Assembly: GCA_046293555.1 (NCBI GenBank)
Contig: JBKBOT010000035.1
Location: 1-14,869 of the forward strand
DNA from: Pyrobaculum sp.
Lineage (GTDB): Archaea; Thermoproteota; Thermoprotei; Thermoproteales; Thermoproteaceae
Reading direction: 5' to 3'
Length of the DNA stretch: 14,869 bases
The translations under genes were made by a program, and so were the position numbers. The notes beneath the pieces are model-generated. The model made no database searches and was not told where the DNA came from. It saw only the letters and a list, made by a program, of their open reading frames with translations. Shown here one piece after another: positions 1 to 11,935 of this stretch; the stretch's first letter is position 1, and each line of letters opens with the position of its first letter.

Positions 1-23
1 AATACATAAAAAGCACAGGGACG

Positions 24-389
24 ATGGTAATTGCTGTCATAATGGTGATGATTTTACTAGTAGCGATTGTATATCTTCTCGGGCCACCGCCGCCACCGCA
101 GAAGAAACCTGACGTAACTACTAATACTGCCAAACCACAACAGATTAATATAACTATAGTCAAGCCTGTGTATATATCTAGTGGAGGGAAATTATACCAA
201 TGTATCCCAAGGGACAACAAGACGTATGCATGTGTAGAAGTACAACAATTACAACCACAGAGCTCTTCCGGCTGGGAGTGGGTTCTCGCGTATCTCATCT
301 TAAAAGATTTGATCGGTTCGGAGCCAGATGATCATGTTGTCTATAGAGATCGTGTTATCTATAGGACTCATACCGTTCGACGACGATAA
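24..389 (+). CDS. Membrane-anchored hypothetical protein
   Basis: N-terminal hydrophobic helix (VIAVIMVMILLVAIVYLL), poly-Pro linker, N-x-T sequons (NIT, NKT), a Cys pair and a second short hydrophobic patch (WEWVLAYLIL). Confidence 0.75.
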   Translation: MVIAVIMVMILLVAIVYLLGPPPPPQKKPDVTTNTAKPQQINITIVKPVYISSGGKLYQCIPRDNKTYACVEVQQLQPQSSSGWEWVLAYLILKDLIGSEPDDHVVYRDRVIYRTHTVRRR

Positions 390-403
390 TGGTTAGCGTA
401 AGA

Positions 404-411
404 TTTAAATA
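404..411 (+). promoter_or_regulatory. Archaeal TATA box (leaderless promoter)
   Basis: TTTAAATA starts 27 nt before ATG 431. Similar spacing at 2488 (ATG 2514), 3192 (ATG 3217), 4192 (GTG 4219), 9974 (ATG 10001), 14465 (ATG 14490) and, on the minus strand, 2253 (ATG 2228). Confidence 0.7.
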
Positions 412-430
412 CTTGTAGTTTTTTATATCC

Positions 431-1342
431 ATGGATACAAAGAGATTAGTTAGAGAGCTTGTGGAAAGCCCTGAGCTTGTGACTGCTGTCGATGTGGTTA
501 GAGAGTTAACAAAACGTGGTATGAGTATAAGAGTCGCACAAGAGTATGTACGTAAATATGGCGGCAGTAGATTTGTTAACATTGGCCGTATTGGTGTAAA
601 GAAAGAGTATGCAATACAACTACTGGCAGAAACCGCCTCGATGGTAAAAAGGCTGCTAGCAGAGAGGAGGAAAAAGAGGCTGACAACCACAGAGGTGTAT
701 AAACACCTATGCGGCAATAGGGTTATGACGAATTCTCAAAGCATATTGCTCGGCGGTTTGTTGAGAAAAGTCGCTGCATATAAAGGTATGAGTAGGGGGC
801 GTCATTACGTGTTTTCCTACAGCCATTTGGCGCAGTTCCCCGACATAGAGCCCGTCTTGTTGAAAAAAATCCTCTGCGGTGGGTCCATCGACTGTAACGA
901 AATTGCCGATGTGGTGAGAGAGGTCGCTTGGCGGCAAGATGTGGTAACCTCAATCGATGTTGTAAACATTATATCCAAAAGCCTCGGGGTTGGGGAAGAT
1001 CAAGTTCAGCCATGTGTTGTCATGCATTTGGCGGAGTTGGTCCAGGCGGGACGGTTCCACCCGTTGGGCGATGTGTTGGTCAAGAGGGAGTACGTGGGCC
1101 AGCTGTTAGTTGAGGCCGCGGCTGCCGTGAAGTTTGTGTTGCAAGGCGGCGTGGCACGGATGGAGGACGTGGCCAAGGCCTTGTGTGGAGGTACGGCGGC
1201 TAGGCTACAGACGTTGGAAGCACTCATAGACGTGTTTGCAGAAAGTAGGAGTGAGGACGGCAGCCGCCAGTTCCGCGTGGAGAGGTTTACATATATTCCA
1301 GACGGTGAGCCACAACTGCTGAGGAGTGTGGTATGTCTATAA
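431..1342 (+). CDS. Hypothetical protein with internal ~150-aa duplication, possibly tandem winged-helix DNA-binding domains
   Basis: The halves align by eye: LVRELV..ELVTAVDVV / VVREVA..DVVTSIDVV; VKKEYAIQLLAE / VKREYVGQLLVE; KHLCG / KALCG; FPDIEPVLLKKILC / IPDGEPQLLRSVVC. Confidence 0.8.
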   Translation: MDTKRLVRELVESPELVTAVDVVRELTKRGMSIRVAQEYVRKYGGSRFVNIGRIGVKKEYAIQLLAETASMVKRLLAERRKKRLTTTEVYKHLCGNRVMTNSQSILLGGLLRKVAAYKGMSRGRHYVFSYSHLAQFPDIEPVLLKKILCGGSIDCNEIADVVREVAWRQDVVTSIDVVNIISKSLGVGEDQVQPCVVMHLAELVQAGRFHPLGDVLVKREYVGQLLVEAAAAVKFVLQGGVARMEDVAKALCGGTAARLQTLEALIDVFAESRSEDGSRQFRVERFTYIPDGEPQLLRSVVCL

Positions 1343-2040
1343 CCGTCCTTGTTGGAGAGGGGGATGTAGCTGAGGTGTTGTGGGAGCGATATAACGCCAC
1401 GTTTTACATCCCTGCAGGCAGGTCTAGCCTTATGGCTTTGTATAACTTGTGGAAGTACGTAGGTGAGGATGGAAGCATAGCTGCCGAGGTGGTCGTGATG
1501 AGTTTGCCTGCGGCGGTGCAAACGTTTTACGAGAACTTAGACCGTCTGAAGGGAGAGGACGGCCCGTTTGTGTATATCGCGAGGGAGTTGGAGGACGTCA
1601 TGGGAGGTCCAGTTGATGTAATCGTGAAAGACGACATAACAACAATCCGCCACATGGGCAAGCCCATTTGGGGGGCCCCGCTTGTCGTAAGGGAGTTGGC
1701 CCCACTGTATCTTTACGTCAAAGAGCTTCTGAGGCCCGGCGTCAACCTCTCCGTAGAGTTCCCGGAGGCCAACCTACATCCATGTGTCCAAGTCAAAGTC
1801 GCCGAGGTTTTGGCCAAACTGGTTGAGAGTGGGGTCAACGTGGCTGTTGTAACACATGGAGAGGCCTTCCTATGGCGACTGTCACATTTGGCGAGGAGGG
1901 GTCTGAGGGATAAAGTGAAAGTATTTCAAATCAGGGGTGGACAGCTGGAAGAGGTTGACATAGATAACATCCCGACGCTTGACGAGGTGTATAACTGGCT
2001 GTATGACGAAAGCATCAAGCTGAGATACAAAAGGGAGTAG
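1333..2040 (+). CDS. Degenerate ABC-type ATPase (AAA_15/AAA_21-like), probably catalytically inactive
   Basis: Retains YIPAGR, RELAPL, VEFPEANLHP.VQ (canonical IEEPEAHLHP..Q) and VAVVTHG (canonical TTHS). The N-terminal ITVLVG strand is not followed by a GKS/T P-loop. Overlaps the upstream gene by 10 nt, with GAGGAG upstream. Confidence 0.75.
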   Translation: MSITVLVGEGDVAEVLWERYNATFYIPAGRSSLMALYNLWKYVGEDGSIAAEVVVMSLPAAVQTFYENLDRLKGEDGPFVYIARELEDVMGGPVDVIVKDDITTIRHMGKPIWGAPLVVRELAPLYLYVKELLRPGVNLSVEFPEANLHPCVQVKVAEVLAKLVESGVNVAVVTHGEAFLWRLSHLARRGLRDKVKVFQIRGGQLEEVDIDNIPTLDEVYNWLYDESIKLRYKRE

Positions 2041-2045
2041 GTTTT

Positions 2046-2228
2046 TTACCCAACGTCTCTCGCCCTCCCCACCTTCCCTAAAAATCGATGTACCCTGGCC
2101 CTTGTGTATGGAGATCTTGCAACCGCTACGAGAACCCTCTTTGGCGGTATCTCCTTCACTATTACGGTGTAGCTAGACGTCTCGAAGGTCTTTCGAGCCG
2201 CCACGTCATAAAACTTCAATTTGGGCAT
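2046..2228 (-). CDS. cc1: Crenarchaeal chromatin protein CC1 homologue (copy 1)
   Basis: KLKFYDVAARKTFETSSY.VI.K...AVARSPYT matches the CC1 pattern as I recall it (KLKFYDxKAKxxFETDxYEVIEK...FAVAKSPYTG). 60 aa, basic, own TATA box. Confidence 0.85.
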   Translation of the reverse strand: MPKLKFYDVAARKTFETSSYTVIVKEIPPKRVLVAVARSPYTRARVHRFLGKVGRARDVG

Positions 2229-2321
2229 GTCATATAGCTTGTAGATATTTAAAAACTTAATTCTGTGGTGAGACTTTTAAATTTGTTTGTTTTATATGGA
2301 TCACATCACAAGCTACATGCC

Positions 2322-2477
2322 ATGGGAACGCTTATATCGATCACGTCGTTGTTCGTAGCATGGCATTTCGCCACGTCCATCGTGGTGGCTCCCATCAGCA
2401 TGTTACCACCGCGTTGGCGGTATATATATCGTGAAGACTTACCCCAAATAGATTTTTTGTATTTTCGACATTTGTAG
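2322..2477 (+). pseudogene. Short or truncated paralogue of the downstream membrane protein
   Basis: GTLISITSLFVAW resembles GNLMFITALFVAW in 2514..2987, then diverges and stops early. The start is uncertain. Confidence 0.4.
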
Positions 2478-2513
2478 AAGAGAACTGTTATAAATACACT
2501 CCATATTAAGATC

Positions 2514-2987
2514 ATGGAAAGTGAAAAGAGTGTGGGATGTTCCAACAACGATTGTCTTCTGAGACTCGTCGTTGGAAACTTAATGTTTATTACGGCATTA
2601 TTTGTAGCTTGGCAGATGGTTAAAATTATTCTATTTGGAATTACATTGCCTATGTTAAGACCTGAAAAAGAGTGGTGGATCCCCATTATCGAGACAGAGG
2701 GTGGGGCCATATTCCCGGCGGCTACAATATTTCTTCTATCTGGTGTAAACATATATGCAATAAAGTTTACATACAGTAGGTGTGGCATAATGGCGTTTAT
2801 TGTGCCCATGCTATTTGTTATCTGTTCGATTGCATACCTTGTCGGCAAAGATTTTATATTGCTAGCCATAGGGGCAGCTGCAGGCTTTATGTATATAGTT
2901 CTGCTGTCGTCGGGTCTATACCACTACTGTCTAGATTGTAGCTGTACTAGAAGAGATGAAGTACAGCCTTTAGAGGGGGGGATATGA
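2514..2987 (+). CDS. Multi-pass membrane protein (about 4 TM), Cys-rich termini
   Basis: Four hydrophobic segments; TTATAAATA 26 nt upstream. Confidence 0.8.
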   Translation: MESEKSVGCSNNDCLLRLVVGNLMFITALFVAWQMVKIILFGITLPMLRPEKEWWIPIIETEGGAIFPAATIFLLSGVNIYAIKFTYSRCGIMAFIVPMLFVICSIAYLVGKDFILLAIGAAAGFMYIVLLSSGLYHYCLDCSCTRRDEVQPLEGGI

Positions 2988-3127
2988 TATGGAGAGTGAT
3001 TGGGTTGTTGGTGTTGTTAGCCGTAGCTGTTGGCATTTATACTAACGATTGGGAGTTTGTAGTCACAGTTATCGGGTCTCTAGTGGCTATAGGTTTGATC
3101 AAACAAGTAAGGGTTGGGCAGTTGTGA
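2984..3127 (+). CDS. Small 2-TM membrane protein (47 aa, not in ORF track)
   Basis: My translation: MIWRVIGLLVLLAVAVGIYTNDWEFVVTVIGSLVAIGLIKQVRVGQL*. ATGA overlap with the upstream stop and a G-rich SD-like stretch. Confidence 0.7.
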   Translation: MIWRVIGLLVLLAVAVGIYTNDWEFVVTVIGSLVAIGLIKQVRVGQL

Positions 3128-3138
3128 TCTTCAACCTA

Positions 3139-3160
3139 CAAAACAGATAGTTTTTTTGTA
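3139..3160 (+). terminator. Possible oligo-T terminator within a weak inverted repeat
   Basis: TACAAAA...TTTTGTA arms with a T7 run, just after the membrane-protein operon. Confidence 0.35.
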
Positions 3161-3216
3161 AATATTTTTGCCTCTTGTCGTATGTAACTTATTTAAACGT
3201 ATGTATATTTAGAGTC

Positions 3217-4188
3217 ATGACAGTGATATACACGCCGGGACACAACTTGGTTACAGATACGTTGATTATACATGGTGTAGTTAAGTACATATCTGTGCTT
3301 GGGGTAAAAAACGCAGTCGTGGAGAGGGTGGGCGAGAGGTATAGAGTTGAGGCGGAGGGTGTGGGTAGTGGGAGGGTGGAGTTTGTTGAGCCCATCGTCA
3401 GAGCTATAAACGTCTATGAGGAATATGGTGATGCCAGGTTGTTAAAGGGCACTGTCACGTATAAGCTCATCCGTGGGGATATAGCGATGGGTGCGATGGG
3501 GCGGCTGCATGTGTTTAAAGCCGGGTTGACGTCTCTCTCTCCCAGCTGGCTGGAGGCGTTTATCGAGAACCATCATTGTGATGGGAAACACGTCCTGCCG
3601 CCGCACCTGTCTGCGGTTTTCAACCTTAGCGGCGAGCGGGGCGTATGTGACGTATGTTTCACCTTTGCAAACCTGGGCTTTCTCTACGGCGCGACTGTAG
3701 CCGTAATGAAGAAGCCGGGGAGGCGCGATGTGGTATACATGGTGCCTACGCCCCGTGGGAGGGCGGCGTGGGAGGATGTCTTCTTGATGCAACAAGTGGC
3801 AAGCTTGTTGGAAATATCTGTGGGGGACGTACCCACCCTGGCGGTGCCCGTGGTGTGGCTTTCGTGGGGCGCTGCGATGGATATCGTGGATGGGCCGTTC
3901 GATCTGTTGGTATGGCGCGTGGAGTCCATCAGGGGGCAGCTGAGGGTTATGGATTGGCACATCTTGGATCTGACCAAGCTTACAGACGTCGTTGTGGAGC
4001 TGTGGGATGGGACTACCGACTGGCCCAGATGTGTCAAGGTCACGCTCTATGGAAATCCACATGTGTTGGCCGATCTTGCTAACTATGCGACCCAAGGCGG
4101 CGATGGGCGTAAGGTGGCTCAAGGCCTGCTGTCTGGAAAAAACACGGCTAGGTTCTGCGCCGGGGCTGTGGAGGTGTTAGCTAAGTGA
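3217..4188 (+). CDS. cas8a2: Stand-alone, divergent type I-A CRISPR large-subunit homologue (Cas8a2/Csa4-like)
   Basis: N-terminal IYTPGHNLVTDTLIIHGVV and central VCDVCFTFANLGFLYG resemble Csa4/Cas8a2 motifs as I recall them (YTPGH...D.LI..G; CxxC..A.LG). Start moved to ATG 3217 because TTTAAAC lies 25 nt upstream. Confidence 0.65.
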   Translation: MTVIYTPGHNLVTDTLIIHGVVKYISVLGVKNAVVERVGERYRVEAEGVGSGRVEFVEPIVRAINVYEEYGDARLLKGTVTYKLIRGDIAMGAMGRLHVFKAGLTSLSPSWLEAFIENHHCDGKHVLPPHLSAVFNLSGERGVCDVCFTFANLGFLYGATVAVMKKPGRRDVVYMVPTPRGRAAWEDVFLMQQVASLLEISVGDVPTLAVPVVWLSWGAAMDIVDGPFDLLVWRVESIRGQLRVMDWHILDLTKLTDVVVELWDGTTDWPRCVKVTLYGNPHVLADLANYATQGGDGRKVAQGLLSGKNTARFCAGAVEVLAK

Positions 4189-4218
4189 TAATTTATATGT
4201 GATCTCTAATTCGACCTC

Positions 4219-4527
4219 GTGGCGATGAGATATGTTCACAAGATGGGCGATGTTCTTATCGATGTTGTTGAAAGATATTACCCGGAGGCTGCAGAGGAAT
4301 ACAGGCAATATGTAAAAAACGTGACGAGGGTTGCGGATATGTTGTTTAGGAGGGGGCGGGTGGATGAGGCCATGACGTATATACAGGCGTTGAGGCAGAT
4401 GTCGCTTGACGTCATAAACTCTTTAGATATAGATCCCAACGAGAGGGAGCTGTTAAAACGGGATATAGATGGCTACTTTGAAAACGTGGTGAGGGAGCTG
4501 GAGAAAAAAGCCCGGCCGGTTCTATAG
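4219..4527 (+). CDS. Small alpha-helical hypothetical protein
   Basis: Charged amphipathic helices; TTTATATG 27 nt before the GTG. Confidence 0.8.
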   Translation: MAMRYVHKMGDVLIDVVERYYPEAAEEYRQYVKNVTRVADMLFRRGRVDEAMTYIQALRQMSLDVINSLDIDPNERELLKRDIDGYFENVVRELEKKARPVL

Positions 4528-4776
4528 GTTCTTCAAAGCGTCGGCATATTTTTTCACAACCTCCTGCGGCATCTCTATCCCCATCTCCCTTGCCGTGACG
4601 TCTATAATGTTGTATATAACTTGTAGCTTCACCTTAGTTTTTTTTCCGCTTTTTGCCTCGTTTAACAGAGTTAGAAATATGTGACGATATTGTCTTACAA
4701 GACGTCTGTGTGGGGTATCTCTAAGAGCTTTTAGAAAGGCGTTTATGTACTCCTCAGCTACCTCATATACATCCAT
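4522..4776 (-). CDS. Small alpha-helical hypothetical protein
   Basis: 84-aa ORF with protein-like composition, upstream TTTAAATA, 6-nt convergent overlap with 4219..4527. Confidence 0.8.
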   Translation of the reverse strand: MDVYEVAEEYINAFLKALRDTPHRRLVRQYRHIFLTLLNEAKSGKKTKVKLQVIYNIIDVTAREMGIEMPQEVVKKYADALKNL

Positions 4777-4799
4777 GTCATATAATTTTATTTAAAAAG

Positions 4800-5138
4800 T
4801 TAGTTCATCAATGGTCTACCTCTAAACGGGGGGAATCTGTCGTGTAGGAGATCTATCATCTCTCTATATCTCTTAAACATCTCCATAGGTGGGTCCCTTC
4901 CGGCGAAGCCGCGCATTATATTTCTATATATATGAAACGCCACATGTAGATGTTTGACGGCCTCCTGTGGGTCATGTATCGACAAATTTATGGCGTTGTC
5001 CATAGACCTGTTTATTACGGCTATATACTCGTCTAGGAATTCTCTGTCTACAACGTCCTGGAGCTCCTCTTTAAAGTTTCCAATCATCTCTATTTTGAAT
5101 TCTTGAAGACTCTGTTGTATGTCTGGGCGACGTATCAT
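4800..5138 (-). CDS. Small alpha-helical hypothetical protein
   Basis: 112-aa ORF, amphipathic helical pattern, AT-rich upstream region. Confidence 0.8.
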   Translation of the reverse strand: MIRRPDIQQSLQEFKIEMIGNFKEELQDVVDREFLDEYIAVINRSMDNAINLSIHDPQEAVKHLHVAFHIYRNIMRGFAGRDPPMEMFKRYREMIDLLHDRFPPFRGRPLMN

Positions 5139-5186
5139 ATGTTAGAATTTAGAGATACATATATACATTCATTTTTAAGATGATAT

Positions 5187-5693
5187 ATGCCTATAGAAAA
5201 AATCTCAGTAAATAGCCACATTGCACGTGTTAGCGACGTATATCCATTGTTGTGGCTTGGAGAGAACGGCTATGCGATAACCCGCTACGGGAGGCTATAT
5301 ATGCTCGACGGCGAGCCGCTTGGCGTGGAGTATGTGGCAAAGCTGTCGGTCCCACAACGTTTCAACCCGGGCGTCTACATAGTTGGAGGTGGCGTAAAGC
5401 TCGGAGTCTACTACGTGTTGAATGTAGTTAAGGCTGTACGCGATGCGGTGAAGTATATAAACGTGGGGGAGACGCTGGCTGCGGCTGGACTGAAGCGTAC
5501 TACACATGTGGCTATCGTGCAGCACATCGAGACGCCGTATCCCCACACAGTCGATTTACGATATGTAAAAACGCTATTGTCGAACCCCCCGGTTAGATAT
5601 ATGGTGGCGTGTGGGGAGGTATACAAAGTGGTTGGGTGGGTGGATGGCCTAGACCAAATGTTTGCGTGTCATACAGACAACGGTCGTATATAA
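5187..5693 (+). CDS. Hypothetical protein (V/Y/G-rich, alpha/beta)
   Basis: Longest ORF between two AT-rich intergenic gaps; no recognised motif. Confidence 0.75.
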   Translation: MPIEKISVNSHIARVSDVYPLLWLGENGYAITRYGRLYMLDGEPLGVEYVAKLSVPQRFNPGVYIVGGGVKLGVYYVLNVVKAVRDAVKYINVGETLAAAGLKRTTHVAIVQHIETPYPHTVDLRYVKTLLSNPPVRYMVACGEVYKVVGWVDGLDQMFACHTDNGRI

Positions 5694-5743
5694 TATCTCT
5701 AGTTGTCGATATGGACCTTTTTAAATAGACTTTTTTATATATC

Positions 5744-6562
5744 ATGGACCCAATTCAGATCCCAAAGTTTTTAAACATGCATTTTCATAAATCTATGTGC
5801 GATCACAAGCCGATACAGATAGATGGCCAGTATGTATGTGTTGAATGCGGCGAGGTGTTAGGCCAAGTGGTGGACTTGCGGGGCGAGTGGCGTGACCCCG
5901 CATTGAGTCGCACCGGCCTCCTGTATGCCAACACCCCCATTGCGGCCACCTTCATGACGTTTATCAGCCACAAGCCCGGCAGAGATGCAGCCACGCTTAT
6001 AGCCACACAGAGGGCCGGCCTCTACGTGTCGGTAAAGGAGAGGCGGATTGTAAACGTGGCTGTGGAGATAGAGCGTCTAGGCAACATCATGGGCATGCCT
6101 CGACACATACGCCAACGTGCAAAAGAGCTCTACATACAGGCCCTAAACCGCGGCGATGTCCGTTGTAACGCCAAGGCGTCTGCAGCAGCTGCGCTTTATT
6201 TAGCCCTAAAGACCGCCAAGATGCCAAGGAGTTTTGACGAGTTTAAACACATAGAACATACGGGCAGGTGTCTAAACAGGCTAGCAGCAGCGTTGGGCAT
6301 GAAGGTGGGGCCGACAGATAGCGTCTACTACCTCGCAAAGCTTGCAGAGGCGTTGTCGCTCCCAACGAATGTAGTTAAGGCGGCTAAGGAATACATAAAG
6401 TCGGCCAGGAGAAGCGGCCGGACGGCCAAGGTGATTGCTGCTGCGGCTGTCTATAAGGCGGTGAATGAGATGGGGCTCGGGCTGTCCATATCCACTATTG
6501 CCAAGACCGCTGGCACATCGCCAAGCTCCATAAAGGAGGCGGTGGCAGCGATGTGGAAGTGA
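5744..6562 (+). CDS. tfb: Transcription initiation factor IIB (TFB) homologue, divergent
   Basis: Zn ribbon CDH...YVCVECGEV; B-reader-like GEWR..RTG; two cyclin repeats (AAAALYLALK...PRSFDE; SGRTAKVIAAAAVY); C-terminal HTH (ISTIAKTAGTSPSSIK). Alternative start at ATG 5795. Confidence 0.92.
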   Translation: MDPIQIPKFLNMHFHKSMCDHKPIQIDGQYVCVECGEVLGQVVDLRGEWRDPALSRTGLLYANTPIAATFMTFISHKPGRDAATLIATQRAGLYVSVKERRIVNVAVEIERLGNIMGMPRHIRQRAKELYIQALNRGDVRCNAKASAAAALYLALKTAKMPRSFDEFKHIEHTGRCLNRLAAALGMKVGPTDSVYYLAKLAEALSLPTNVVKAAKEYIKSARRSGRTAKVIAAAAVYKAVNEMGLGLSISTIAKTAGTSPSSIKEAVAAMWK

Positions 6563-6840
6563 TGACATATAGCGTTGTGACTAACTGTACCAGGGAGAAG
6601 CTAAGCCGCCCGGCGCCGGCGAGGGAGTTGTATAGGGGATCCTCTGTGAGAAACATCGTAAAGGCGGTAGATGAGGCGAGGGCGGGGGGCGTGGATGTGA
6701 AGCTATACATAATGCCCGCGGTATGTGAGCGGCGGGATGTCTATGTGTTATCGCCATATAGACCTCACTGCGGCGTTTGGATAAAAACCGGCAATTTTGA
6801 CAAACATCTTGTAGTCAAGAGGCTTCTCCTAAATACCTGA
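6562..6840 (+). CDS. DUF6884-like small protein, apparently shortened
   Basis: VVTNCTREKL..PAPARELYRGS resembles the CxxxK...PAxxLYxG motif. TGATG coupling to the tfb stop favours start 6562 over 6553. Confidence 0.5.
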   Translation: MTYSVVTNCTREKLSRPAPARELYRGSSVRNIVKAVDEARAGGVDVKLYIMPAVCERRDVYVLSPYRPHCGVWIKTGNFDKHLVVKRLLLNT

Positions 6841-6865
6841 TTTTTTTAAATCTAATTTTATCTTC

Positions 6866-7963
6866 ATGCGATACTCACTCCCGATCATAATCGCCATATT
6901 GGCGGTAGTCATATATCTGTCTCCCCATCAACACCACCACGTTTATAGTACTGTTTATAGTACATCACCCCCTCAAAACACTACTCCTTTGTTACAACCT
7001 TATGAGCGTGTAAACTCATCGATAATAGAGGACGTCATACAATTCTACCGCTCTAAGAATTTGACAACTCAATGTGGAAAGATAGAGGTGTATTTACGCC
7101 CGGATTTGAGGGGTTACGTCGGCATTGCTGAAGGCTGTACTATATACATAAAGCGTGTAGAGCCTTACGTCATCGCCCACGAGATTGCCCACTTGTTTAT
7201 CCCATTCCGCGGCGATTGGAGGCAGGAGTCGGTGGCTGACGGCATCGCGTTGGCATATCTACACGCCAAGGGTTACGATGTGCCGCGACGTAATGTCGAC
7301 GTGTATTTCACCAAACGGTTGTATGAGAGAAGTCCTTTCGACGCAAAAGAGGAGGAGTGGTACGATTATGCCGCGCCTTTTGCCTGGGTGGCACAAAACA
7401 CGACAGACTGGCGTTGGGCATATCAGCCGGAGGCAGTGTACTTACGTTTTCTTGAGGCGCTTAAGGATTGTGTTACGATTTTTGGCGTCAAGTATTGTCC
7501 GGAGTACACAGAAGTACGTAATGCTTACAACGAGTCCTTCAAGATGGCGCCATATACGGCGCGGTACTTCCGCATAAAAACGTCAGGGGATTTCGTTATC
7601 GTTAGTGACGGCTTTATTGAACGTATCTATCCACCGTCTGTCACAATTGCATATATTGATACTATTGGGAAAATACGTCGAATTGAGATAAGTTACGTCT
7701 ACATCCACGCCACAGCGTTTGTTGCCAAGATTAACGACGTCTACGTCACTGTGGTGTACTTAGAGGAGTCTAAAAACGGCAGACCCTACAAACCGGTAAA
7801 CGGTATACGTGATATAAACGACACTAGCATGATGTTTACAAACGGTATTGCTATATTAAAGACGTGGGAGCGTCCACAAGCTGTGACAATTTATAACAAA
7901 ACGGTAGAGGTTAGGCTTGCGGAACATATTTCAGCGGAGAAAGACAAGATCTGTGTGTCGTAA
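6866..7963 (+). CDS. Secreted or membrane-anchored zinc metallopeptidase (gluzincin-like)
   Basis: N-terminal signal/anchor helix; VIAHEIAH (HEXXH) followed by WRQESVAD (candidate third-ligand Glu); many N-x-S/T sequons (NTT, NSS, NLT, NES, NDT, NKT). Confidence 0.8.
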   Translation: MRYSLPIIIAILAVVIYLSPHQHHHVYSTVYSTSPPQNTTPLLQPYERVNSSIIEDVIQFYRSKNLTTQCGKIEVYLRPDLRGYVGIAEGCTIYIKRVEPYVIAHEIAHLFIPFRGDWRQESVADGIALAYLHAKGYDVPRRNVDVYFTKRLYERSPFDAKEEEWYDYAAPFAWVAQNTTDWRWAYQPEAVYLRFLEALKDCVTIFGVKYCPEYTEVRNAYNESFKMAPYTARYFRIKTSGDFVIVSDGFIERIYPPSVTIAYIDTIGKIRRIEISYVYIHATAFVAKINDVYVTVVYLEESKNGRPYKPVNGIRDINDTSMMFTNGIAILKTWERPQAVTIYNKTVEVRLAEHISAEKDKICVS

Positions 7964-7965
7964 CC

Positions 7966-8541
7966 CTACTCCACCTCTCTATCTCTTTCCCTTTTGCGCC
8001 TAGAGTAGCGCATAAGTAACTTCTTGGCGCGGTCAAGCAACTCGTTTGAATCCACCTCTTTTTCTAGTTCCTTAAGGTATTTTAAGGCATCTCTGGCAGA
8101 TTCCACCATTATTTTTTTCACCTCCTCATCGCCGTCCACCCCTCTTGCGAGGTGGAAGTTTTTAAAGTGGTATATGAAAAGCGCTGTTGCCTTGGGGTTT
8201 GCTGCGAACAGTCTGTGGAGAGATTTGACAACGTCGCGTTTCGACATATCTAGACCCTCGGCAAATACCTCGACGGCATATTCTCCAAGCGTCTCGTGGT
8301 CTATGTATATATAGTCAACCCAACGGGGGCCTCCATACAGCCTCATGGCCAGGCCGAATGTCCTATAGTCGTCAACCAGATTTCTATGTCTTCTCGATTC
8401 AAGATCCTCGTTGTCCTCCACAACTCTGACCCTTCTCTTGGCGGGGGTCTTCACCTCCTCCACCTCTGGCCCTCTTTCTTCCACCTCTAACTCCTCCACC
8501 TCTGGCTCTCTTTCCGCTCTTGTCTTAACCATGCGACCCAT
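7966..8541 (-). CDS. Hypothetical protein with charged, low-complexity N-terminus
   Basis: Start moved from 8670 to ATG 8541, which has TTAAATATA 26 nt upstream (8532 and 8553 are alternatives). E/R-rich N-terminus, helical core. Confidence 0.75.
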   Translation of the reverse strand: MGRMVKTRAEREPEVEELEVEERGPEVEEVKTPAKRRVRVVEDNEDLESRRHRNLVDDYRTFGLAMRLYGGPRWVDYIYIDHETLGEYAVEVFAEGLDMSKRDVVKSLHRLFAANPKATALFIYHFKNFHLARGVDGDEEVKKIMVESARDALKYLKELEKEVDSNELLDRAKKLLMRYSRRKRERDREVE

Positions 8542-8759
8542 GGAGGTGGGCATGTGGATATATTTAACAATTCTACGTGTCTGTAATCTTGGCGTGTGTG
8601 AGATAAAATTTGGGAAAAATAGTATATATATCCATACGATCTTTTGTATATGGCAACACGACGGAAACAAAAAAGAAATAGGAGGAGAGGTTATTGATTT
8701 GGCGCCACTCTATAGTTTGTTATAAACATTCCCTTTTTTATTTATATATTGTTTGAAAC

Positions 8760-9101
8760 ATGGAGATGGAGTTTGTGGATGTAAAGAGGGTGGTAGAACT
8801 GTATATATCTGGCATATCGGTGAACAACATCGCTAACATGTTGGGAGTTGGCACCAAGACGGTGTCTAAGATCTTGCGGAGACATGGCATATATGCCAAA
8901 CCTAAGGTTGTGGTTGAAGTGGAGTGTGTGATGTGTGGCGAGATGGGTTTTTTGACCCCCCTAAGGAGGGGGATATACGTAACACATATAAAAAACGGAA
9001 GGGTTACGCGTTGCTACGTTGGGGACGTGTCTACAGCCATGCGGAGATACCCATCCCTGCGGAAGTACTTCGGCAGTATTTTGAGCTCCGCCACGCCTTG
9101 A
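8760..9101 (+). CDS. HTH plus Zn-finger-like putative DNA-binding protein
   Basis: HTH: VVELYISGISVNNIANMLGVGTKTVSKILRRHG. C-terminal CVMCGEMG.L...IYVTH...RCYVG (CxxC..H..C). TATA spacing favours ATG 8766. Confidence 0.8.
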   Translation: MEMEFVDVKRVVELYISGISVNNIANMLGVGTKTVSKILRRHGIYAKPKVVVEVECVMCGEMGFLTPLRRGIYVTHIKNGRVTRCYVGDVSTAMRRYPSLRKYFGSILSSATP

Positions 9102-9922
9102 CTACATGACAGCTCGCGCTCCAGAGCGCGGAGCACGCCCCAGAGGTGGGGCGCTCTGCGTAACGTTAACATCACCTCGCCGCGGGTCATGTTAAACGTT
9201 TTGGCTAGCGATGTGTAGAGATCGCCGTCATATATCGCACAAAGCTCTCGCCTCAATTGTTCCAACGCCCTGGCGTTGATGTATGTGCCGGCATATTTCA
9301 CGAAGGTCCCCTGCAGATCGTTAAGTGCATCGTATGGCAGTTTTGTCTCTATGAAGAATACAGGCAGATTATGTAATACAGAATTATGTAGCTTCCAGCC
9401 TCCCCCCATCTTTGTCTTCTCCCCTTTCCTCTTCTTGCTCCCACTCTTAACCCTCTTTCTTTTTTCCCTGTCAGCTTGGGTCACCGAGGCGAGTTTTAGT
9501 ATTACCCTAGGCGTGATTCGAGGGACCTCTATTGGGCCTAATATATATTCATCGCCGTTGGTATAGTGTTTTTTCACGACGTAGTATATAACACGTGTGA
9601 TGTGTGGCTTTGGCGGTAACTCCATGTGGAAGAGCCTTGTGAAGACCTTTCTGAATTTGCCAAAGTGATAATACTTAATGCCGCCCTCTTTTAGCACATA
9701 GCCAACCTCTGCCACCAATCTATCGTATAGATCGCGACGTATGTAGACGTTGTTTGCGTTGACGAAGTGGTCCAACAAGCGACACATCCTAGCGGCGTAG
9801 AAGACCTCGTTGTAGTTAAGGCCCATCAGGCGACAGAAGTCTGTCAACACGACGGCATTTTGGAGGAGTTTCTCCATGGCGTTGCATCTCTTTGTGACCC
9901 TGTCTGTTTGGCCATGTGGCAT
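9014..9922 (-). CDS. Basic two-domain hypothetical protein, possibly nucleic-acid binding
   Basis: 302-aa ORF with a K/R-rich linker (REKRKRVKSGSKKRKGEK); TTTATAAA about 25 nt upstream; 88-nt convergent overlap with 8760..9101. Confidence 0.75.
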   Translation of the reverse strand: MPHGQTDRVTKRCNAMEKLLQNAVVLTDFCRLMGLNYNEVFYAARMCRLLDHFVNANNVYIRRDLYDRLVAEVGYVLKEGGIKYYHFGKFRKVFTRLFHMELPPKPHITRVIYYVVKKHYTNGDEYILGPIEVPRITPRVILKLASVTQADREKRKRVKSGSKKRKGEKTKMGGGWKLHNSVLHNLPVFFIETKLPYDALNDLQGTFVKYAGTYINARALEQLRRELCAIYDGDLYTSLAKTFNMTRGEVMLTLRRAPHLWGVLRALERELSCSQGVAELKILPKYFRRDGYLRMAVDTSPT

Positions 9923-10000
9923 GTTTTTATAACAATGTTTTATAAAGACTGCTGCCTTCTATGTTATGTAATATTTATATATAACGATGTGCATCCACAT

Positions 10001-10171
10001 ATGACAAAACTACAATTCTACGACGTCAAGGCAAAGAGGAAGTTTGCCACAAGTAGGTACAAAATAGTCAAAAAGAGGACCAAGAGCGGCGTTAGAACAT
10101 TCGCTGTGGCGAAATCGCCATATACTGGGATAACCGCGTATCGGATCGTCGGAGGGCGGGAGAGGGGTTAA
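10001..10171 (+). CDS. cc1: Crenarchaeal chromatin protein CC1 homologue (copy 2)
   Basis: MTKLQFYDVKAKRKFATSRYKIVKKRTKSGVRTFAVAKSPYTGITAYRIVG. This is the C-terminal 56 aa of track ORF 9767..10171; TTTATATA lies 27 nt before ATG 10001. Confidence 0.88.
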   Translation: MTKLQFYDVKAKRKFATSRYKIVKKRTKSGVRTFAVAKSPYTGITAYRIVGGRERG

Positions 10172-10419
10172 TGGATCGTTTCGAGGCGGTCGTTGCGACC
10201 GCCGTAGCCATATCTGTCGCCTTTTTTCTCATGGCTCCGTGGAGCGTCCTTACCGCATGCTACCCAATGCAACCGCTTTTGGGGGGCGCGATTGTCTACG
10301 CCATCTTTTCCGTGCTACATGCAAAATATGGAGAGAGGGTGGAGGGGGTTTTCACAAAATTGTTCTTTGTGTTTTTAGTCGCCATGTGGATACTCACCCT
10401 TGCGCCGCCTGTATGTTAA
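10171..10419 (+). CDS. Small 3-TM membrane protein
   Basis: Three hydrophobic segments; TAATG coupling to cc1 copy 2. Confidence 0.75.
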   Translation: MDRFEAVVATAVAISVAFFLMAPWSVLTACYPMQPLLGGAIVYAIFSVLHAKYGERVEGVFTKLFFVFLVAMWILTLAPPVC

Positions 10420-10675
10420 CCATATCATAAATAAGCTGTCTTAAACACAGCCACAGCCTCCCCTTGACGCACAACCTCCTCAACTTTTCCACAGCCTCGA
10501 CGTTGAGAGTGATGGTATGCGATCTGGTGCCCTTGGCCCGCGGCGCCTCTGTGAGGGGTTCTGTGCGGGACATGATGTAGCTCTCGACGCATTTGGACAC
10601 GTTTTCGCCACAGAGCTGTCGGAGTTTCTGCCACACGTCGTCTGGCACTGAGACGAAGGCGTTTACTGTAGACAT
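10394..10675 (-). CDS. Tandem ribbon-helix-helix-like protein (2 units)
   Basis: AFVSVPDDVWQKLRQLCGENVSKCVESYI and HTITLNVEAVEKLRRLC...LCLRQLI. Start set to ATG 10675, overlapping the upstream gene end. Confidence 0.65.
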   Translation of the reverse strand: MSTVNAFVSVPDDVWQKLRQLCGENVSKCVESYIMSRTEPLTEAPRAKGTRSHTITLNVEAVEKLRRLCVKGRLWLCLRQLIYDMVNIQAAQG

Positions 10676-11199
10676 GTCTGCCGCAGAAGCGCGTTTACAC
10701 ACTTGCCGGCCCACTGTTTAAACGTGGAGATCTCGCATTTCTCTACAAGCATCTCCACATGGCGTGGCGATAGGTACAACCTCCTGGGGGCACCGCGCCA
10801 GTTTAGATACGACATGTCTACCCTCTCCGCGGCCTCTATCAGCTCCTCGACGAAGTATTGTAGCTTCTTTCCACCACGTCGCCTGTCGACAGCCCTCCAC
10901 TCAGCCAGCGGGAGCCTCACGGAGATGTGGGCCATCTTCTCGACGGTTGTTTGAAGTCCACGTAACGCCGTGTAGACCGCGGCGGATATACATTTGCTAT
11001 ATGTGGTCCACCCGGCGCAGAGCTCCTCCACCCTCTTTACATCCTTTATACGGACAATTATGGGAGTGCTGTCTACAGGCGGTGCCTCATATGGCTGCGT
11101 GGCCTCGGCTAGGAGCTCCTCAAGACATCGCCTCTTACCGACACACCAAAGTGCAAGTTTTTTGAGAGCCTCCCTGTCTAGAAACATATGTGTAAGCAT
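10663..11199 (-). CDS. Multi ribbon-helix-helix-like protein (about 4 units)
   Basis: Repeated strand-helix-helix units, e.g. HISVRLPLAEWRAVDRRRGGKKLQYFVEELIE and IIVRIKDVKRVEELC...SKCISAAV. Confidence 0.6.
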   Translation of the reverse strand: MLTHMFLDREALKKLALWCVGKRRCLEELLAEATQPYEAPPVDSTPIIVRIKDVKRVEELCAGWTTYSKCISAAVYTALRGLQTTVEKMAHISVRLPLAEWRAVDRRRGGKKLQYFVEELIEAAERVDMSYLNWRGAPRRLYLSPRHVEMLVEKCEISTFKQWAGKCVNALLRQTCLQ

Positions 11200-11239
11200 G
11201 AAAATAAAAAATGTTTAAAAGAGACACGCGGATAGATAT

Positions 11240-11908
11240 ATGTCTAACAACCCCGCCCAGAGCTACACAGAGATGATGGCTGCGTACCGTAGGTACATAA
11301 GACAGCCCGTCGAAATGTCGAAAAACTACTCCGAGATGATGGCTGCGTACCAACGCAGGGAGAAGATAGAGGCTGAAAAAAACATCAAGAAGAGAGATGA
11401 AACTCCAAAAAACGTCGCAGCCTACAGGATGTTGAAAGGAGATAAAGACATGGAGGACGGTGAGAGGGAAGAGAAGAAGAAAAAGAGGGGGGACTTCCAA
11501 GTCCTGCGGATTGGAGTAGTTCCATGGGGCGTGAGGTATGAGGGCAAGGTATATACATTCAGGGGGATTGCGGATACGAAGTACGTAGACCTTCCAGACG
11601 GCAGGAGGGTCTATGCGATATCAAGCGGTATTAACAACTGGCGTATAGAGGTGGTTGATCCCAGGGAGCTTGGCTACCGGGTCCAGTTTATAGGCGATAA
11701 AGAGGTTCACTACGTGGAGCCCGGCATGGCGGTACAGATAGAGGGCGGAAGCCCATCATACCTGATATATGACGGCAAAAAAGAGTTGGTCAAGAAAGTT
11801 GGCGATATCTACTTCAAAGAGCTCCCAGACGGGCGGGTTGTCCAAATCCGCAAGAGTGGCGCCAGAAGATGGGTGGTGAAGATCGATCGACAGAGGGCCC
11901 TTGAATAA
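11240..11908 (+). CDS. Hypothetical protein with N-terminal helical repeats and a duplicated beta-rich domain
   Basis: SYTEMMAAY / NYSEMMAAY / NVAAY; two copies of Y(E/D)GK...LPDGRxV...SG...W. Confidence 0.85.
   Translation: MSNNPAQSYTEMMAAYRRYIRQPVEMSKNYSEMMAAYQRREKIEAEKNIKKRDETPKNVAAYRMLKGDKDMEDGEREEKKKKRGDFQVLRIGVVPWGVRYEGKVYTFRGIADTKYVDLPDGRRVYAISSGINNWRIEVVDPRELGYRVQFIGDKEVHYVEPGMAVQIEGGSPSYLIYDGKKELVKKVGDIYFKELPDGRVVQIRKSGARRWVVKIDRQRALE
11270..11351 (+). repeat. 19-bp exact direct repeat, 63-bp period
   Basis: GAGATGATGGCTGCGTACC at 11270 and 11333. Confidence 0.9.
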
Positions 11909-11935
11909 TATATTAATCTATATTATGTATGGTAT

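What the first reader, a model, noticed from the sequence alone, without database searches (positions are those of the whole stretch)
3217..4188. Orphan, altered Cas8a2/Csa4-like gene: candidate Cascade-decoy anti-CRISPR
Seen: own TATA box, YTPGH..D.LI..G start and CxxC..A.LG motif, with no cas5/cas7/cas3 or repeat array in the window. The segment before the CxxC (LPPHLSAVFNL) looks shortened and lacks the GKY-like motif I recall in Csa4 proteins. Known: Cas8a is the PAM-reading, Cas3-binding large subunit of type I-A Cascade, which Thermoproteales encode, and virus-borne cas homologues can inhibit CRISPR. Inference: a captured Cas8a2 that poisons host Cascade or sequesters Cas3, or one repurposed for regulation.
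Basis: partly seen in the sequence, partly recalled or inferred. Interest (0 to 1): 0.85.

Follow-up and report, generated by a model that had tools for sequence, protein, structure and literature searches.

The report
Orphan Cas8a2 homologue on mobile element
A mobile genetic element of a hot-spring archaeon carries its own, trimmed copy of the large subunit of the host's type I-A CRISPR complex, which most likely sabotages that complex, although this has not been tested.

Summary
Window 3217-4188 (+) encodes a 323-aa protein that is a true Cas8a2/Csa4 homologue: Pfam PF09703 E 7.5e-30, and a pLDDT-90 model that matches P. furiosus type I-A Cas8a at Z 27.1 over 301 residues. It has a TATA-like box 20-28 nt upstream. 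The window holds no other cas gene, CRISPR repeat or mini-array.

It keeps the YTPGH start, the CxxC and the C-terminal bundle. It lacks the conserved 'EGR..LYLPLSxxYGKY' beta-meander.

The window is a whole 14.9-kb contig made mostly of ORFans. CRISPR arrays of the same bin carry four spacers against it. One is a 47/47 match inside this gene with a CCG PAM.

The same bin holds at least five more solo Csa4-like genes on other element-like contigs, two of them as tandem pairs. With one metagenomic protein they form a clade (98/87) beside the operon-borne Cas8a2 of related genomes.

Best reading (about 0.4): a Cas-derived, dominant-negative large subunit, that is an anti-CRISPR against host type I-A, analogous to AcrIB3/AcrIB4. 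Binding, inhibition and expression are untested. 'Virus' is not shown, only 'mobile element'.

The parts
3189..3198 (+). TATA-like box TTATTTAAAC, 19-28 nt upstream of the ATG; suggests a leaderless or short-leader transcript of its own
   Evidence: Sequence read. The same TTTAAA-type box precedes six other ORFs of the contig. No transcript data exist.
3217..4188 (+). Solo Cas8a2/Csa4-like gene, 323 aa (P0001)
   Evidence: The ATG at 3217 is preferred over the TTG at 3175 because homologues start 1-14 residues before YTPGH and the TATA-like box lies inside the longer frame.
3229..3276 (+). Conserved N-terminal motif YTPGHNLVTDTLIIHG (residues 5-20), retained
   Evidence: T6, P7, G8 and G20 are nearly invariant in alignment A1.
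3571..3645 (+). Residues 119-143 (HHCDGKHVLPPHLSAVFNLSGERGV): a clade-specific H-x-C motif plus a loop, standing where canonical proteins have the EGR..LYLPLSxxYGKY beta-meander
   Evidence: Alignment and motif scan. The P0001 model is almost all coil at 121-143, with pLDDT 69 for block 131-140. The canonical P0002 model has strands at 126-128, 148-150, 153-155 and 159-162.
3646..3657 (+). CxxC (C144, C147), retained
   Evidence: Invariant C144 and nearly invariant C147 in A1.
4098..4147 (-). Protospacer (4098-4144) with PAM CCG (4145-4147 read on the minus strand), inside the gene; matches a spacer of array contig C71 at 47 of 47
7201..7254 (+). Protospacer 7204-7254 (50 of 51) with PAM CCC; spacer on array contig C72
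   Evidence: A metagenome contig carries the CRISPR repeat next to this stretch (loose end at 7204).
8801..8845 (-). Protospacer 8801-8842 (40 of 42) with PAM CCC; spacer on array contig C125
   Evidence: Loose ends with the repeat lie at 8801 and 8839.
5870..5913 (+). Degenerate protospacer (39 of 44) without a CCN/TCN PAM (GTG); spacer on array contig C98

Best explanation
The gene is a mobile-element copy of the type I-A Cascade large subunit Cas8a2. It was captured from the host lineage and then trimmed.

Proposed mechanism (inferred): it is expressed from its own promoter and competes with host Cas8a2 for its place in the Cas7/Cas5a/Csa5/Cas3'/Cas3'' complex. It keeps the overall Cas8a fold and the conserved N- and C-terminal motifs, so it could still assemble. 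It lacks one conserved beta-meander, so the resulting complexes would be defective in a later step such as PAM reading, R-loop locking or Cas3 activation. That would make it a Cas-derived, dominant-negative anti-CRISPR protecting an element that the host's arrays already target.

Shown: homology, fold, the deletion, orphan status, location on targeted foreign DNA, a separate clade, and several copies on other elements.

Inferred: assembly into Cascade, loss of function, and inhibition.
For: 1. True Cas8a2 homologue.
- Pfam PF09703 E 7.5e-30; PADLOC Cas8a.
- Model pLDDT 90.4, pTM 0.91.
- Against 7tr6_C (Cas8a of P. furiosus type I-A Cascade): Foldseek E 2.1e-10, TM 0.71; VIA-align Z 27.1, rmsd 2.9 A, 301 residues aligned. 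The next hit, an I-B Cas8, has Z 10.2.

2. A specific rather than general alteration.
- The YTPGH motif, CxxC, WPR and GGD motifs are kept.
- The EGR..YGKY block is missing. It is a small beta-meander in the canonical model and coil here.
- The block is old: it aligns with 'KGTATIPITLMPSAGKY' of P. furiosus Cas8a.

3. Orphan status.
- No cas gene, repeat or array on the contig.
- In four related genomes the homologue lies 3-4 kb from cas7 and cas5 on the same strand.
- Six Pyrobaculum genomes are described with cas8a2 only inside cas6-7-5-3'-3''-8a2 modules (PMC3396285, passages).

4. Foreign and targeted.
- The contig is mostly ORFans.
- Of the bin's 289 spacers, 4 hit it, at 0, 1, 2 and 5 mismatches.
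- The three best hits have CCG, CCC and CCC PAMs.
- 27 of 30 protospacers in the bin with 5 or fewer mismatches have CCN or TCN. This agrees with the CCN (CCA/CCT) PAM that T. tenax type I-A Cascade cleaved; TCA gave reduced cleavage and TCG none (PMC4005679, passages).

5. The host has the cognate system: csa5 and cas7 on C57; cas3' C-terminus, cas3'' and the first 30 aa of a cas8a2 on C93.

6. A family of such genes on elements.
- Solo copies lie on C79, C50 (two in tandem) and C52 (two in tandem); a degenerate one lies on C21.
- C50 is linked at both ends to C41, which carries a D5-like helicase and a serine recombinase.
- Spacers also hit C50, C52 and C21.

7. These copies, plus one metagenomic protein, form a clade with support 98/87. 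The clade sits beside operon-borne Cas8a2 of related genomes and has long branches.

8. Precedent: AcrIB3 (a Cas5 homologue) and AcrIB4 (a Cas8b C-terminal homologue) are element-borne Cas homologues that form their own clades and inhibit type I-B (bioRxiv 10.1101/2023.06.24.545427, passages).
Against: - No assay, no expression data and no interaction evidence exist.
- The role of the deleted block is unknown to me. The paper on the P. furiosus structure was not held.
- The GKY motif is not indispensable. 3 of 24 non-clade homologues (P0003, P0024, P0027) also lack a clean motif, and one clade member (P0006 on C52) keeps it as YGNY.
- 301 of 323 residues superpose on a working Cas8a, so the protein could be a functional large subunit.
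- The bin is a population. A perfect spacer and its target in the same sample do not show that the element survives in cells that carry the spacer.
- Element status of C52 and C79 is inferred from gene content and spacer hits only.
- Only 38 homologues exist among 1.84 billion representatives, so the clade rests on few sequences, most of them from this one bin.
Confidence: 0.4

Rival explanations
1. It is a working alternative large subunit. The element supplies its own Cas8a2 variant to re-programme host Cascade-Cas3, for example with changed PAM preference or changed Cas3 gating. Host crRNAs would then spare the element yet still attack competitors, or Cascade would be used for gene regulation.
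For: - Almost the whole Cas8a fold is kept (Z 27.1, 301 residues).
- Conserved N- and C-terminal motifs are kept.
- Tandem pairs of diverged copies on C50 and C52 suggest diversification of specificity.
- Many spacers of the bin target other element-like contigs, so conflict between elements is plausible.
Against: - No array or repeat on the contig.
- The most conserved internal block of the family is deleted.
- I know of no precedent for a solo large subunit re-programming Cascade; that statement rests on recall, not on a search.
Confidence: 0.2
2. It has been exapted for a job unrelated to CRISPR. A Cas8a-fold protein that binds DNA or protein would serve replication, partition or transcription of the element.
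For: - Long branches and loss of family motifs in the shorter paralogues; the C21 copy falls below the Pfam cut-off.
- The gene sits among ORFans and near a TFB-like gene.
Against: - P0001 itself keeps most Cas8a2 motifs.
- The copies occur only where the host has type I-A and where the elements are targeted.
- No positive evidence points to any other function.
Confidence: 0.15
3. It is a decaying passenger: host DNA picked up by the element, with no function.
For: - The gene is a local GC peak (0.55-0.57) between flanks of 0.40-0.43, as expected of captured host DNA.
- It scores 101 bits against the NCBIfam cut-off of 232.5.
Against: - The 323-codon frame is intact.
- The model is very confident, pLDDT 90.4.
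- It has its own TATA-like box.
- At least five further intact solo copies lie on other contigs.
- At 33-35% identity to operon copies an unselected frame would not have stayed open.
Confidence: 0.1
4. It is an ordinary host cas gene. The contig would be a piece of the host chromosome's fragmented cas locus, or a binning artefact.
For: - The host cas locus is fragmented over C57, C93 and C100.
- The full host cas8a2 was not assembled.
Against: - There is 3.2 kb upstream and 10.7 kb downstream without any cas gene.
- cas3'' is followed by a different cas8a2 start on C93.
- Spacers with correct PAMs target the contig, including this gene.
- The protein lies outside the operon-borne group in the tree.
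Confidence: 0.05

Closest known systems
Canonical Cas8a2/Csa4 (Pfam PF09703, TIGR01914), large subunit of type I-A Cascade, e.g. in the T. tenax csa5-cas7-cas5a-cas3'-cas3''-cas8a2 operon
   Same: - Sequence family: PF09703 E 7.5e-30.
- 33-35% identity over nearly full length to the operon copies of related genomes G012 and G020.
- YTPGH start, CxxC, WPR and GGD motifs.
- Same fold.
   Different: - Not in a cas operon.
- Lacks the EGR..LYLPLSxxYGKY block.
- 323 aa against 343-393.
- Below the NCBIfam cut-off.
- Lies on spacer-targeted foreign DNA, in a separate clade.
P. furiosus Cas8a in the type I-A Cascade structures 7TR6/7TR8/7TR9/7TRA/7R2K
   Same: Fold match with Z 27.1, rmsd 2.9 A, 301 residues, model 1-323 on chain 2-339. 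The family profile hits it at E 1.1e-9.
   Different: - 12-14% identity.
- The P. furiosus protein keeps the '..IPITLMPSAGKY..' block that P0001 lacks.
- It has no CxxC at the aligned place.
AcrIB3 and AcrIB4 of Listeria mobile elements (Cas5 and Cas8b C-terminal homologues that inhibit type I-B)
   Same: Element-borne homologues of Cascade subunits, outside cas loci, about 38% identical to the Cas protein, in clades of their own (bioRxiv 10.1101/2023.06.24.545427, passages).
   Different: - Those are bacterial and type I-B. AcrIB4 is only a 90-residue C-terminal piece. Their activity is demonstrated.
- Here the protein is archaeal, type I-A and a nearly full-length large subunit, and activity is untested.
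AcrIF3
   Same: It interferes through likeness to the Cascade large subunit: described as a structural mimic of the Cas8f domain that recruits Cas3 (PMC11656645 and the preprint above, passages).
   Different: AcrIF3 has no detectable sequence homology to Cas8f. P0001 is a clear homologue.
Known type I-A anti-CRISPRs: SIFV2 gp15, and SIRV2 gp47 (AcrIA3) and gp48 (AcrIIIB1/AcrIA4)
   Same: Same target system and the same kind of host-element conflict in hyperthermophilic Thermoproteota.
   Different: - None is described as Cas-derived.
- AcrIA3 acts on the cas promoter (10.1101/2024.04.02.587611, abstract).
- gp15 comes from a Sulfolobus virus (PMC11065993, passages).

Membership tests
Cas8a2/Csa4 (PF09703 / TIGR01914) | Scores above the Pfam gathering threshold | tested here: met
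   104.9 bits against 25, E 7.5e-30, two stretches.
Cas8a2/Csa4 (PF09703 / TIGR01914) | Scores above the NCBIfam TIGR01914 cut-off used to name the protein | tested here: not met
   101.2 bits against 232.5.
Cas8a2/Csa4 (PF09703 / TIGR01914) | Cas8a fold | tested here: met
   7tr6_C at Z 27.1, rmsd 2.9 A, 301 aligned residues; Foldseek E 2.1e-10.
Cas8a2/Csa4 (PF09703 / TIGR01914) | Conserved N-terminal YTPGH..HG motif and VCxxCF..LG..YG motif | tested here: met
   Alignment A1, invariant and nearly invariant columns.
Cas8a2/Csa4 (PF09703 / TIGR01914) | Conserved EGR..LYLPLSxxYGKY block before the CxxC | tested here: not met
   Absent in P0001. A GKY-like motif is present in 21 of 24 non-clade homologues of 240 aa or more.
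Cas8a2/Csa4 (PF09703 / TIGR01914) | Encoded last in a cas7-cas5a-cas3'-cas3''-cas8a2 operon | tested here: not met
   No cas gene on the contig. Operon context was seen in G012, G020, G002 and G016.
Cas8a2/Csa4 (PF09703 / TIGR01914) | Assembles into Cascade and supports PAM-dependent interference | not testable with these tools
   Needs biochemistry.
Cas-derived anti-CRISPR ('viral cas' such as AcrIB3/AcrIB4) | Homologue of a Cas effector subunit, encoded on a mobile element outside any CRISPR-cas locus | tested here: met
   The type of element (virus or plasmid) is not settled.
Cas-derived anti-CRISPR ('viral cas' such as AcrIB3/AcrIB4) | Forms a clade apart from the bona fide Cas proteins | tested here: met
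   7 rows form one side of a branch with support 98/87. The group was recognised from the first tree and from gene context, so the test is not fully independent.
Cas-derived anti-CRISPR ('viral cas' such as AcrIB3/AcrIB4) | The host carries the cognate CRISPR-Cas subtype and targets the element | tested here: met
   Type I-A genes on C57 and C93; 289 spacers, 4 of them against C35, with CCN PAMs on the three best.
Cas-derived anti-CRISPR ('viral cas' such as AcrIB3/AcrIB4) | Inhibits interference, while the genuine Cas protein does not | not testable with these tools
   Needs an interference assay.

The most novel reading that the evidence does not exclude
Mobile elements of this archaeal population carry a diversifying family of Cas8a2 paralogues: single on C35, tandem pairs on two other elements, and progressively trimmed. 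These would take over the host's integral Cascade-Cas3 complex. They would not merely block it but swap its large subunit, so that host crRNAs no longer license cleavage of the element yet remain usable against rival elements. That would be subunit replacement as a strategy combining counter-defence and hijacking in type I-A.
Probability: 0.12. Interest if true: 0.85.

Novelty: new variant of a known kind. Interest (0 to 1): 0.66.

Why it matters
Cas-derived anti-CRISPRs were reported only recently and for bacterial systems (AcrIB3 and AcrIB4). A 2024 review still calls it an enigma that viruses so rarely recruit Cas proteins as inhibitors (PMC11656645, passage).

A nearly full-length large-subunit homologue on archaeal elements, in several copies and in graded states of trimming, would extend that principle to type I-A and to archaea.

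It would also give a natural set of deletion variants for asking which parts of Cas8a are needed for assembly, for PAM reading and for allosteric release of Cas3. In type I-A, Cas3 is an integral, autoinhibited part of the complex (PMC11127173, passages). The variants could also serve as an off-switch for type I-A Cascade-Cas3 tools.

Tried and rejected
Searches for relatives outside the bin:
- megablast of the whole window against phage records found nothing.
- tblastn of P0001 against phage records found nothing.
- tblastn of three other ORFs against phage records: two found nothing; the third gave only a 26%-coverage hit to an ATPase of Vibrio phages.
- IMG/VR scans with P0001 and with the 365-aa ORF found nothing.
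- The metagenome-contig scan with P0001 found nothing.
- The word-indexed search of 5.8 billion proteins found only P0001 itself.
- Foldseek against viral models (BFVD) gave no match at E 0.001 or better.
All of these searches may leave out records of the window's own genome.

Complex prediction of P0001 with host Cas3'' (chains A2 and A1) gave no verdict: scores 0.26 and 0.21 against a mark of 0.32, and the controls were not run. I use this neither for nor against binding.

The look-up of sequencing runs listed only the hot-spring metagenome that may be the source, and no RNA holder. Read laying on its contigs showed cover of the whole window, no variant in the gene and no joint that closes the element. 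It says nothing about expression.

phmmer of P0001 alone against PDB sequences gave nothing meaningful. Only the family profile reached Cas8a.

I considered whether P0006 (C52, 5'-open) is the host's own cas8a2 continuing from C93. I found no end overlap. It is 31% identical to G012's operon copy, whereas operon copies are 42-45% identical to P0002 and P0003. It branches within the element clade. I rejected the idea, but not firmly.

I considered a zinc site formed by H119/C121/C144/C147. It cannot be tested because no model coordinates are available to me.

Supplements of the papers were not seen. Those of Katz et al. and of Plagens et al. may hold lists of viral cas homologues or interaction tables that bear on novelty.

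Claims about what is in print rest on searches. None of their listings named a mobile-element or viral Cas8a2/Csa4.
Full report
WHAT IS THERE

The window is a complete contig (C35, 14,869 bp) of a 1.75-Mb, 145-contig genome bin. The ORF at 3217-4188 (+) is open and encodes 323 aa.

- the start MTVIYTPGHNLVTDTLIIHG;
- ...HHCDGKHVLPPHLSAVFNLSGERGVCDVCFTFANLG...;
- TTATTTAAAC at 3189-3198, 19-28 nt before the ATG.

TTTAAA-type boxes ending 14-21 nt before the start codon precede six other ORFs of the contig. So the gene looks like an independent, leaderless-type transcription unit. No transcript data exist.

IS IT A Cas8a2?

Yes, by sequence and by fold.
- Pfam Cas_Csa4 scores 104.9 bits, E 7.5e-30.
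- Three PADLOC Cas8a models score E 1e-21 to 1e-24.
- NCBIfam TIGR01914 matches at E 5.9e-29 but with 101 bits, far below its naming cut-off of 232.5.
- An exhaustive HMMER scan of 1.84 billion representative proteins found only 38 relatives at E 0.001 or better. The best outside hits are 35-39% identical.
- An AlphaFold2 model built on 26 homologues is confident: pLDDT 90.4, pTM 0.91.
- The model matches the Cas8a chain of the P. furiosus type I-A Cascade (7tr6_C). Foldseek gives E 2.1e-10 and TM 0.71. VIA-align gives Z 27.1, rmsd 2.9 A, with 301 residues aligned over model 1-323. The next hits are I-B and I-G large subunits at Z 10.2 or less.
- The ESM Atlas neighbours are also Csa4, CsaX and other Cas8 clusters.

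HOW IS IT ALTERED?

In alignment A1 the conserved YTPGH..HG start, the VCxxCF..LG..YG motif, the WPR motif and the GGD motif are kept. The block 'EGR-x8-10-LYLPLSxxYGKYxxxxY' just before the CxxC is missing.

A motif scan over homologues of 240 aa or more shows:
- A GKY-like motif is present in 21 of 24 rows outside the clade described below. These are 17 YGKY/FGKY/YGKF, 2 AGKY, 1 IGKY and 1 GGAY. It is absent or disrupted in P0003, P0024 and P0027.
- It is absent in 6 of 7 clade rows.
- The TPGH-to-CxxC distance is 138 in P0001. It is 96-103 in the shorter paralogues. It is 144-183 in 23 of the 24 other rows; the 24th, P0031, has no TPGH match.

In a model of the canonical relative P0002 (pLDDT 92.6) the block forms short strands at 126-128, 148-150, 153-155 and 159-162. 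In P0001 the equivalent residues 121-143 are almost all coil.

The block is ancient. The family profile aligns it with '...KGTATIPITLMPSAGKYMLKHFG...' of P. furiosus Cas8a.

In its place the clade has a motif of its own, H-x-C-[DE]-x-[KR]-[HR]-x-[LP]-P. Its meaning is unknown.

I could not learn what the block does in the solved complex, because the structure paper was not held.

CONTEXT: ORPHAN, ON FOREIGN DNA, AND TARGETED

None of 20 other ORFs of the contig matches a cas family. Genome-wide searches with Cas7 (PF01905) and Cas5 (PF09704) give no hit on C35. The host repeat is absent at up to 3 mismatches. There is no Rfam family and no tRNA.

Most ORFs are ORFans. The 302-aa ORF 9014-9922, for example, was found in 0 of 61 other genomes of the order. 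A few ORFs are host-like captures (see below).

The bin holds CRISPR arrays on 18 contigs, with 289 spacers. Four spacers match C35:
- 4098-4144, 47 of 47, inside this very gene;
- 7204-7254, 50 of 51;
- 8801-8842, 40 of 42;
- 5870-5913, 39 of 44.

When the arrays are read in the orientation that gives the ATTGAAAG 5' tag, 27 of 30 protospacers in the bin with 5 or fewer mismatches are preceded by CCN (19) or TCN (8). The three best C35 protospacers have CCG, CCC and CCC. This matches the CCN (CCA/CCT) PAM found for T. tenax type I-A Cascade in vitro, 5' on the non-target strand; TCA gave reduced cleavage and TCG none (PMC4005679, passages).

Metagenome contigs of the probable source sample carry the repeat next to two of these spacers.

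The contig's right end overlaps C61 by 39 nt within a proline-rich repeat, so the element is at least about 18.7 kb.

No hallmark of a virus or plasmid was found on C35, and there was no relative in phage, IMG/VR or metagenome collections. I therefore call it a mobile element, not a virus.

THE HOST'S OWN SYSTEM

G000 has:
- csa5, cas7 and adaptation genes on C57;
- a second cas7-cas5a pair on C100;
- on C93, the C-terminus of cas3', then cas3'', then the first 30 codons of a cas8a2 (MARLYTPGH...) that runs off the contig.

In related genomes the Csa4 homologue is single, 343-382 aa, and lies 3-4 kb from cas7 and cas5 (G012, G020, G002, G016). It was found in 9 of the 40 other genomes searched with P0001.

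A published survey of six Pyrobaculum genomes lists cas8a2 only within cas6-7-5-3'-3''-8a2 modules (PMC3396285, passages).

A FAMILY OF SOLO COPIES

tblastn of P0001 against the bin found further Csa4-like genes:
- C79, 287-292 aa;
- C50, two in tandem, 275-291 aa;
- C52, two in tandem: a 5'-open 259-aa piece that keeps YGNY, and a 279-aa copy;
- a fragment on C124;
- a degenerate 244-aa copy on C21, at Pfam E 7e-4, below the cut-off.

C50 overlaps C41 by 77 nt at both ends. This is consistent with a ring of about 15.5 kb, although C54 and C95 offer alternative links. C41 encodes a 974-aa protein with DUF5906 and Pox_D5 helicase domains and a serine recombinase.

C52 also encodes an HTH/zinc-ribbon protein like those of C35 and C50, and a weak PCNA-like protein. 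Spacers of the bin hit C50, C52 (once inside its short Csa4-like gene) and C21.

In a maximum-likelihood tree of 33 rows, the six G000 copies and one metagenomic protein (P0022, source unknown) form one side of a branch with support 98/87. I left out P0036 for its very long branch, and all hits under 240 aa. The clade lies next to G012's operon copy with P0002 and G020's with P0003. Inside the clade the order is C52a (block kept), then C35, then the short forms, all on long branches.

With P0022 as query, only the canonical loci of G012, G002 and G020 matched among 119 other genomes of the class.

These groups were recognised from the data and then tested on the same data, so the support is descriptive.

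HOW IT MOST LIKELY WORKS

In type I-A the six proteins Csa5, Cas7, Cas5a, Cas3', Cas3'' and Cas8a2 form one complex. [quoted passage not shown] Cas3 sits autoinhibited in the complex until the R-loop forms (PMC11127173, passages).

A protein that keeps the Cas8a scaffold but lacks a conserved internal element is well suited to take the large-subunit place and yield dead complexes. This is what AcrIB3, a Cas5 homologue, was proposed to do in type I-B as a faulty subunit built into Cascade; its homologue-derived partner AcrIB4 matches only the Cas8b C-terminus (bioRxiv 10.1101/2023.06.24.545427, passages).

I give this reading about 0.4. What is shown and what is inferred is set out under Best explanation.

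The main rivals are:
- a working alternative large subunit that re-programmes Cascade (0.2);
- exaptation to a function unrelated to CRISPR (0.15);
- a decaying passenger (0.1);
- an ordinary host gene on a mis-binned fragment (0.05).

EVIDENCE THAT CUTS THE OTHER WAY

- The fold is almost complete.
- The GKY motif is not universal among presumed canonical proteins.
- One clade member keeps the block.
- The co-occurrence of spacer and target is at the level of a population.
- Nothing is known about expression (searches give no RNA data).
- My one attempt to score binding to host Cas3'' gave no verdict (see Tried and rejected).

NOVELTY

Cas-derived inhibitors are a known kind: AcrIB3, AcrIB4, viral Cas4, and the AcrIF3 mimic. 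Known type I-A anti-CRISPRs are not described as Cas-derived: SIFV2 gp15, SIRV2 gp47 and gp48.

My searches listed no paper on a mobile-element or viral Cas8a2/Csa4. Supplements were closed, and the published version of Katz et al. was not seen.

I rate the finding a new variant of a known kind. Interest is about 0.66: a specialist would find a family of trimmed large subunits on archaeal elements surprising and directly testable, but the function is unproven.

TOOLS THAT WERE CLOSED

The search of earlier findings and the listing of cluster members were closed, so no earlier findings were used.

Noticed in passing
window 5744-6562 (+): A TFIIB/TFB-like protein of 272 aa on the element: Pfam TFIIB repeat E 8.5e-14, and PHROG phrog_20431 E 2.7e-20. 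It is 29% identical to TFB-like ORFs on C5 and C21.
   Followed up: partly
window 1333-2040 (+): A 235-aa ORF that matches only the C-terminal part of defence-type ATPases (PADLOC PD-T4-4_A E 1.3e-11; also GajA, HEC-02A, NsnB). Longer paralogues (280-401 aa, 38-41% identity) lie on C101, C42 and C25.
   Followed up: partly
window 6866-7963 (+): A 365-aa ORF with an N-terminal hydrophobic stretch and an HEIAH (HExxH) motif at residue 105. It is 71-75% identical to a copy on C29. It is related to the N-terminal part of a host protein of about 1200 aa found in 13 of 17 same-genus genomes, so it is another host-derived gene on the element.
   Followed up: partly
window 11936-14452 (+), 3-389 (+), 14490-14867 (+): An 838-aa protein with 24% proline and seven copies of a '..FNRPRNLIDxEVxTVPQLERNK' unit. 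Both contig ends also run into proline-rich ORFs. The right end overlaps C61 by 39 nt inside such a repeat, which is probably why the assembly broke there.
   Followed up: partly
G000 contigs C50 (L046) and C41 (L044): C50 carries two tandem short Csa4-like genes. It overlaps C41 by 77 nt at both ends, giving a possible ring of about 15.5 kb. C41 encodes a DUF5906/Pox_D5 helicase protein (974 aa) and a serine recombinase. Alternative links lead to C54 and C95.
   Followed up: partly
G000 contig C52 (L047) 3641-5459 (-): A second tandem pair of Csa4-like genes: one keeps the YGNY block, one is short. A weak PCNA-like ORF and an HTH/zinc-ribbon ORF follow. A spacer matches inside the short copy at 40 of 44.
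   Followed up: partly
G000 contig C21 17757-18491 (-) (L045 3758-4492): A degenerate 244-aa Csa4-like ORF without the CxxC (Pfam E 7e-4, below the cut-off), near a full TFB gene and an HTH ORF. Four spacers hit C21.
   Followed up: no
G000 array contigs C22, C71, C72, C92, C98 and 13 others: 289 spacers with one repeat family. Many match other contigs of the same bin (C19, C21, C25, C29, C30, C50, C52, C61, C66, C73, C95, C128). So the bin contains several mobile elements or proviruses that its own arrays target.
   Followed up: partly
window 1-1545 versus 1516-12479: Contigs of the probable source metagenome show depth 4-6.5 over the first 1.5 kb and 15-16 over the rest, with a loose end at 1516. 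The left end may belong to only part of the element population.
   Followed up: no
window 3571-3600 (+) and the paralogues on C79, C50 and C52: A clade-specific motif H-x-C-[DE]-x-[KR]-[HR]-x-[LP]-P replaces the canonical DH..EGR. Together with the CxxC it could form a metal site. This was not testable here.
   Followed up: no
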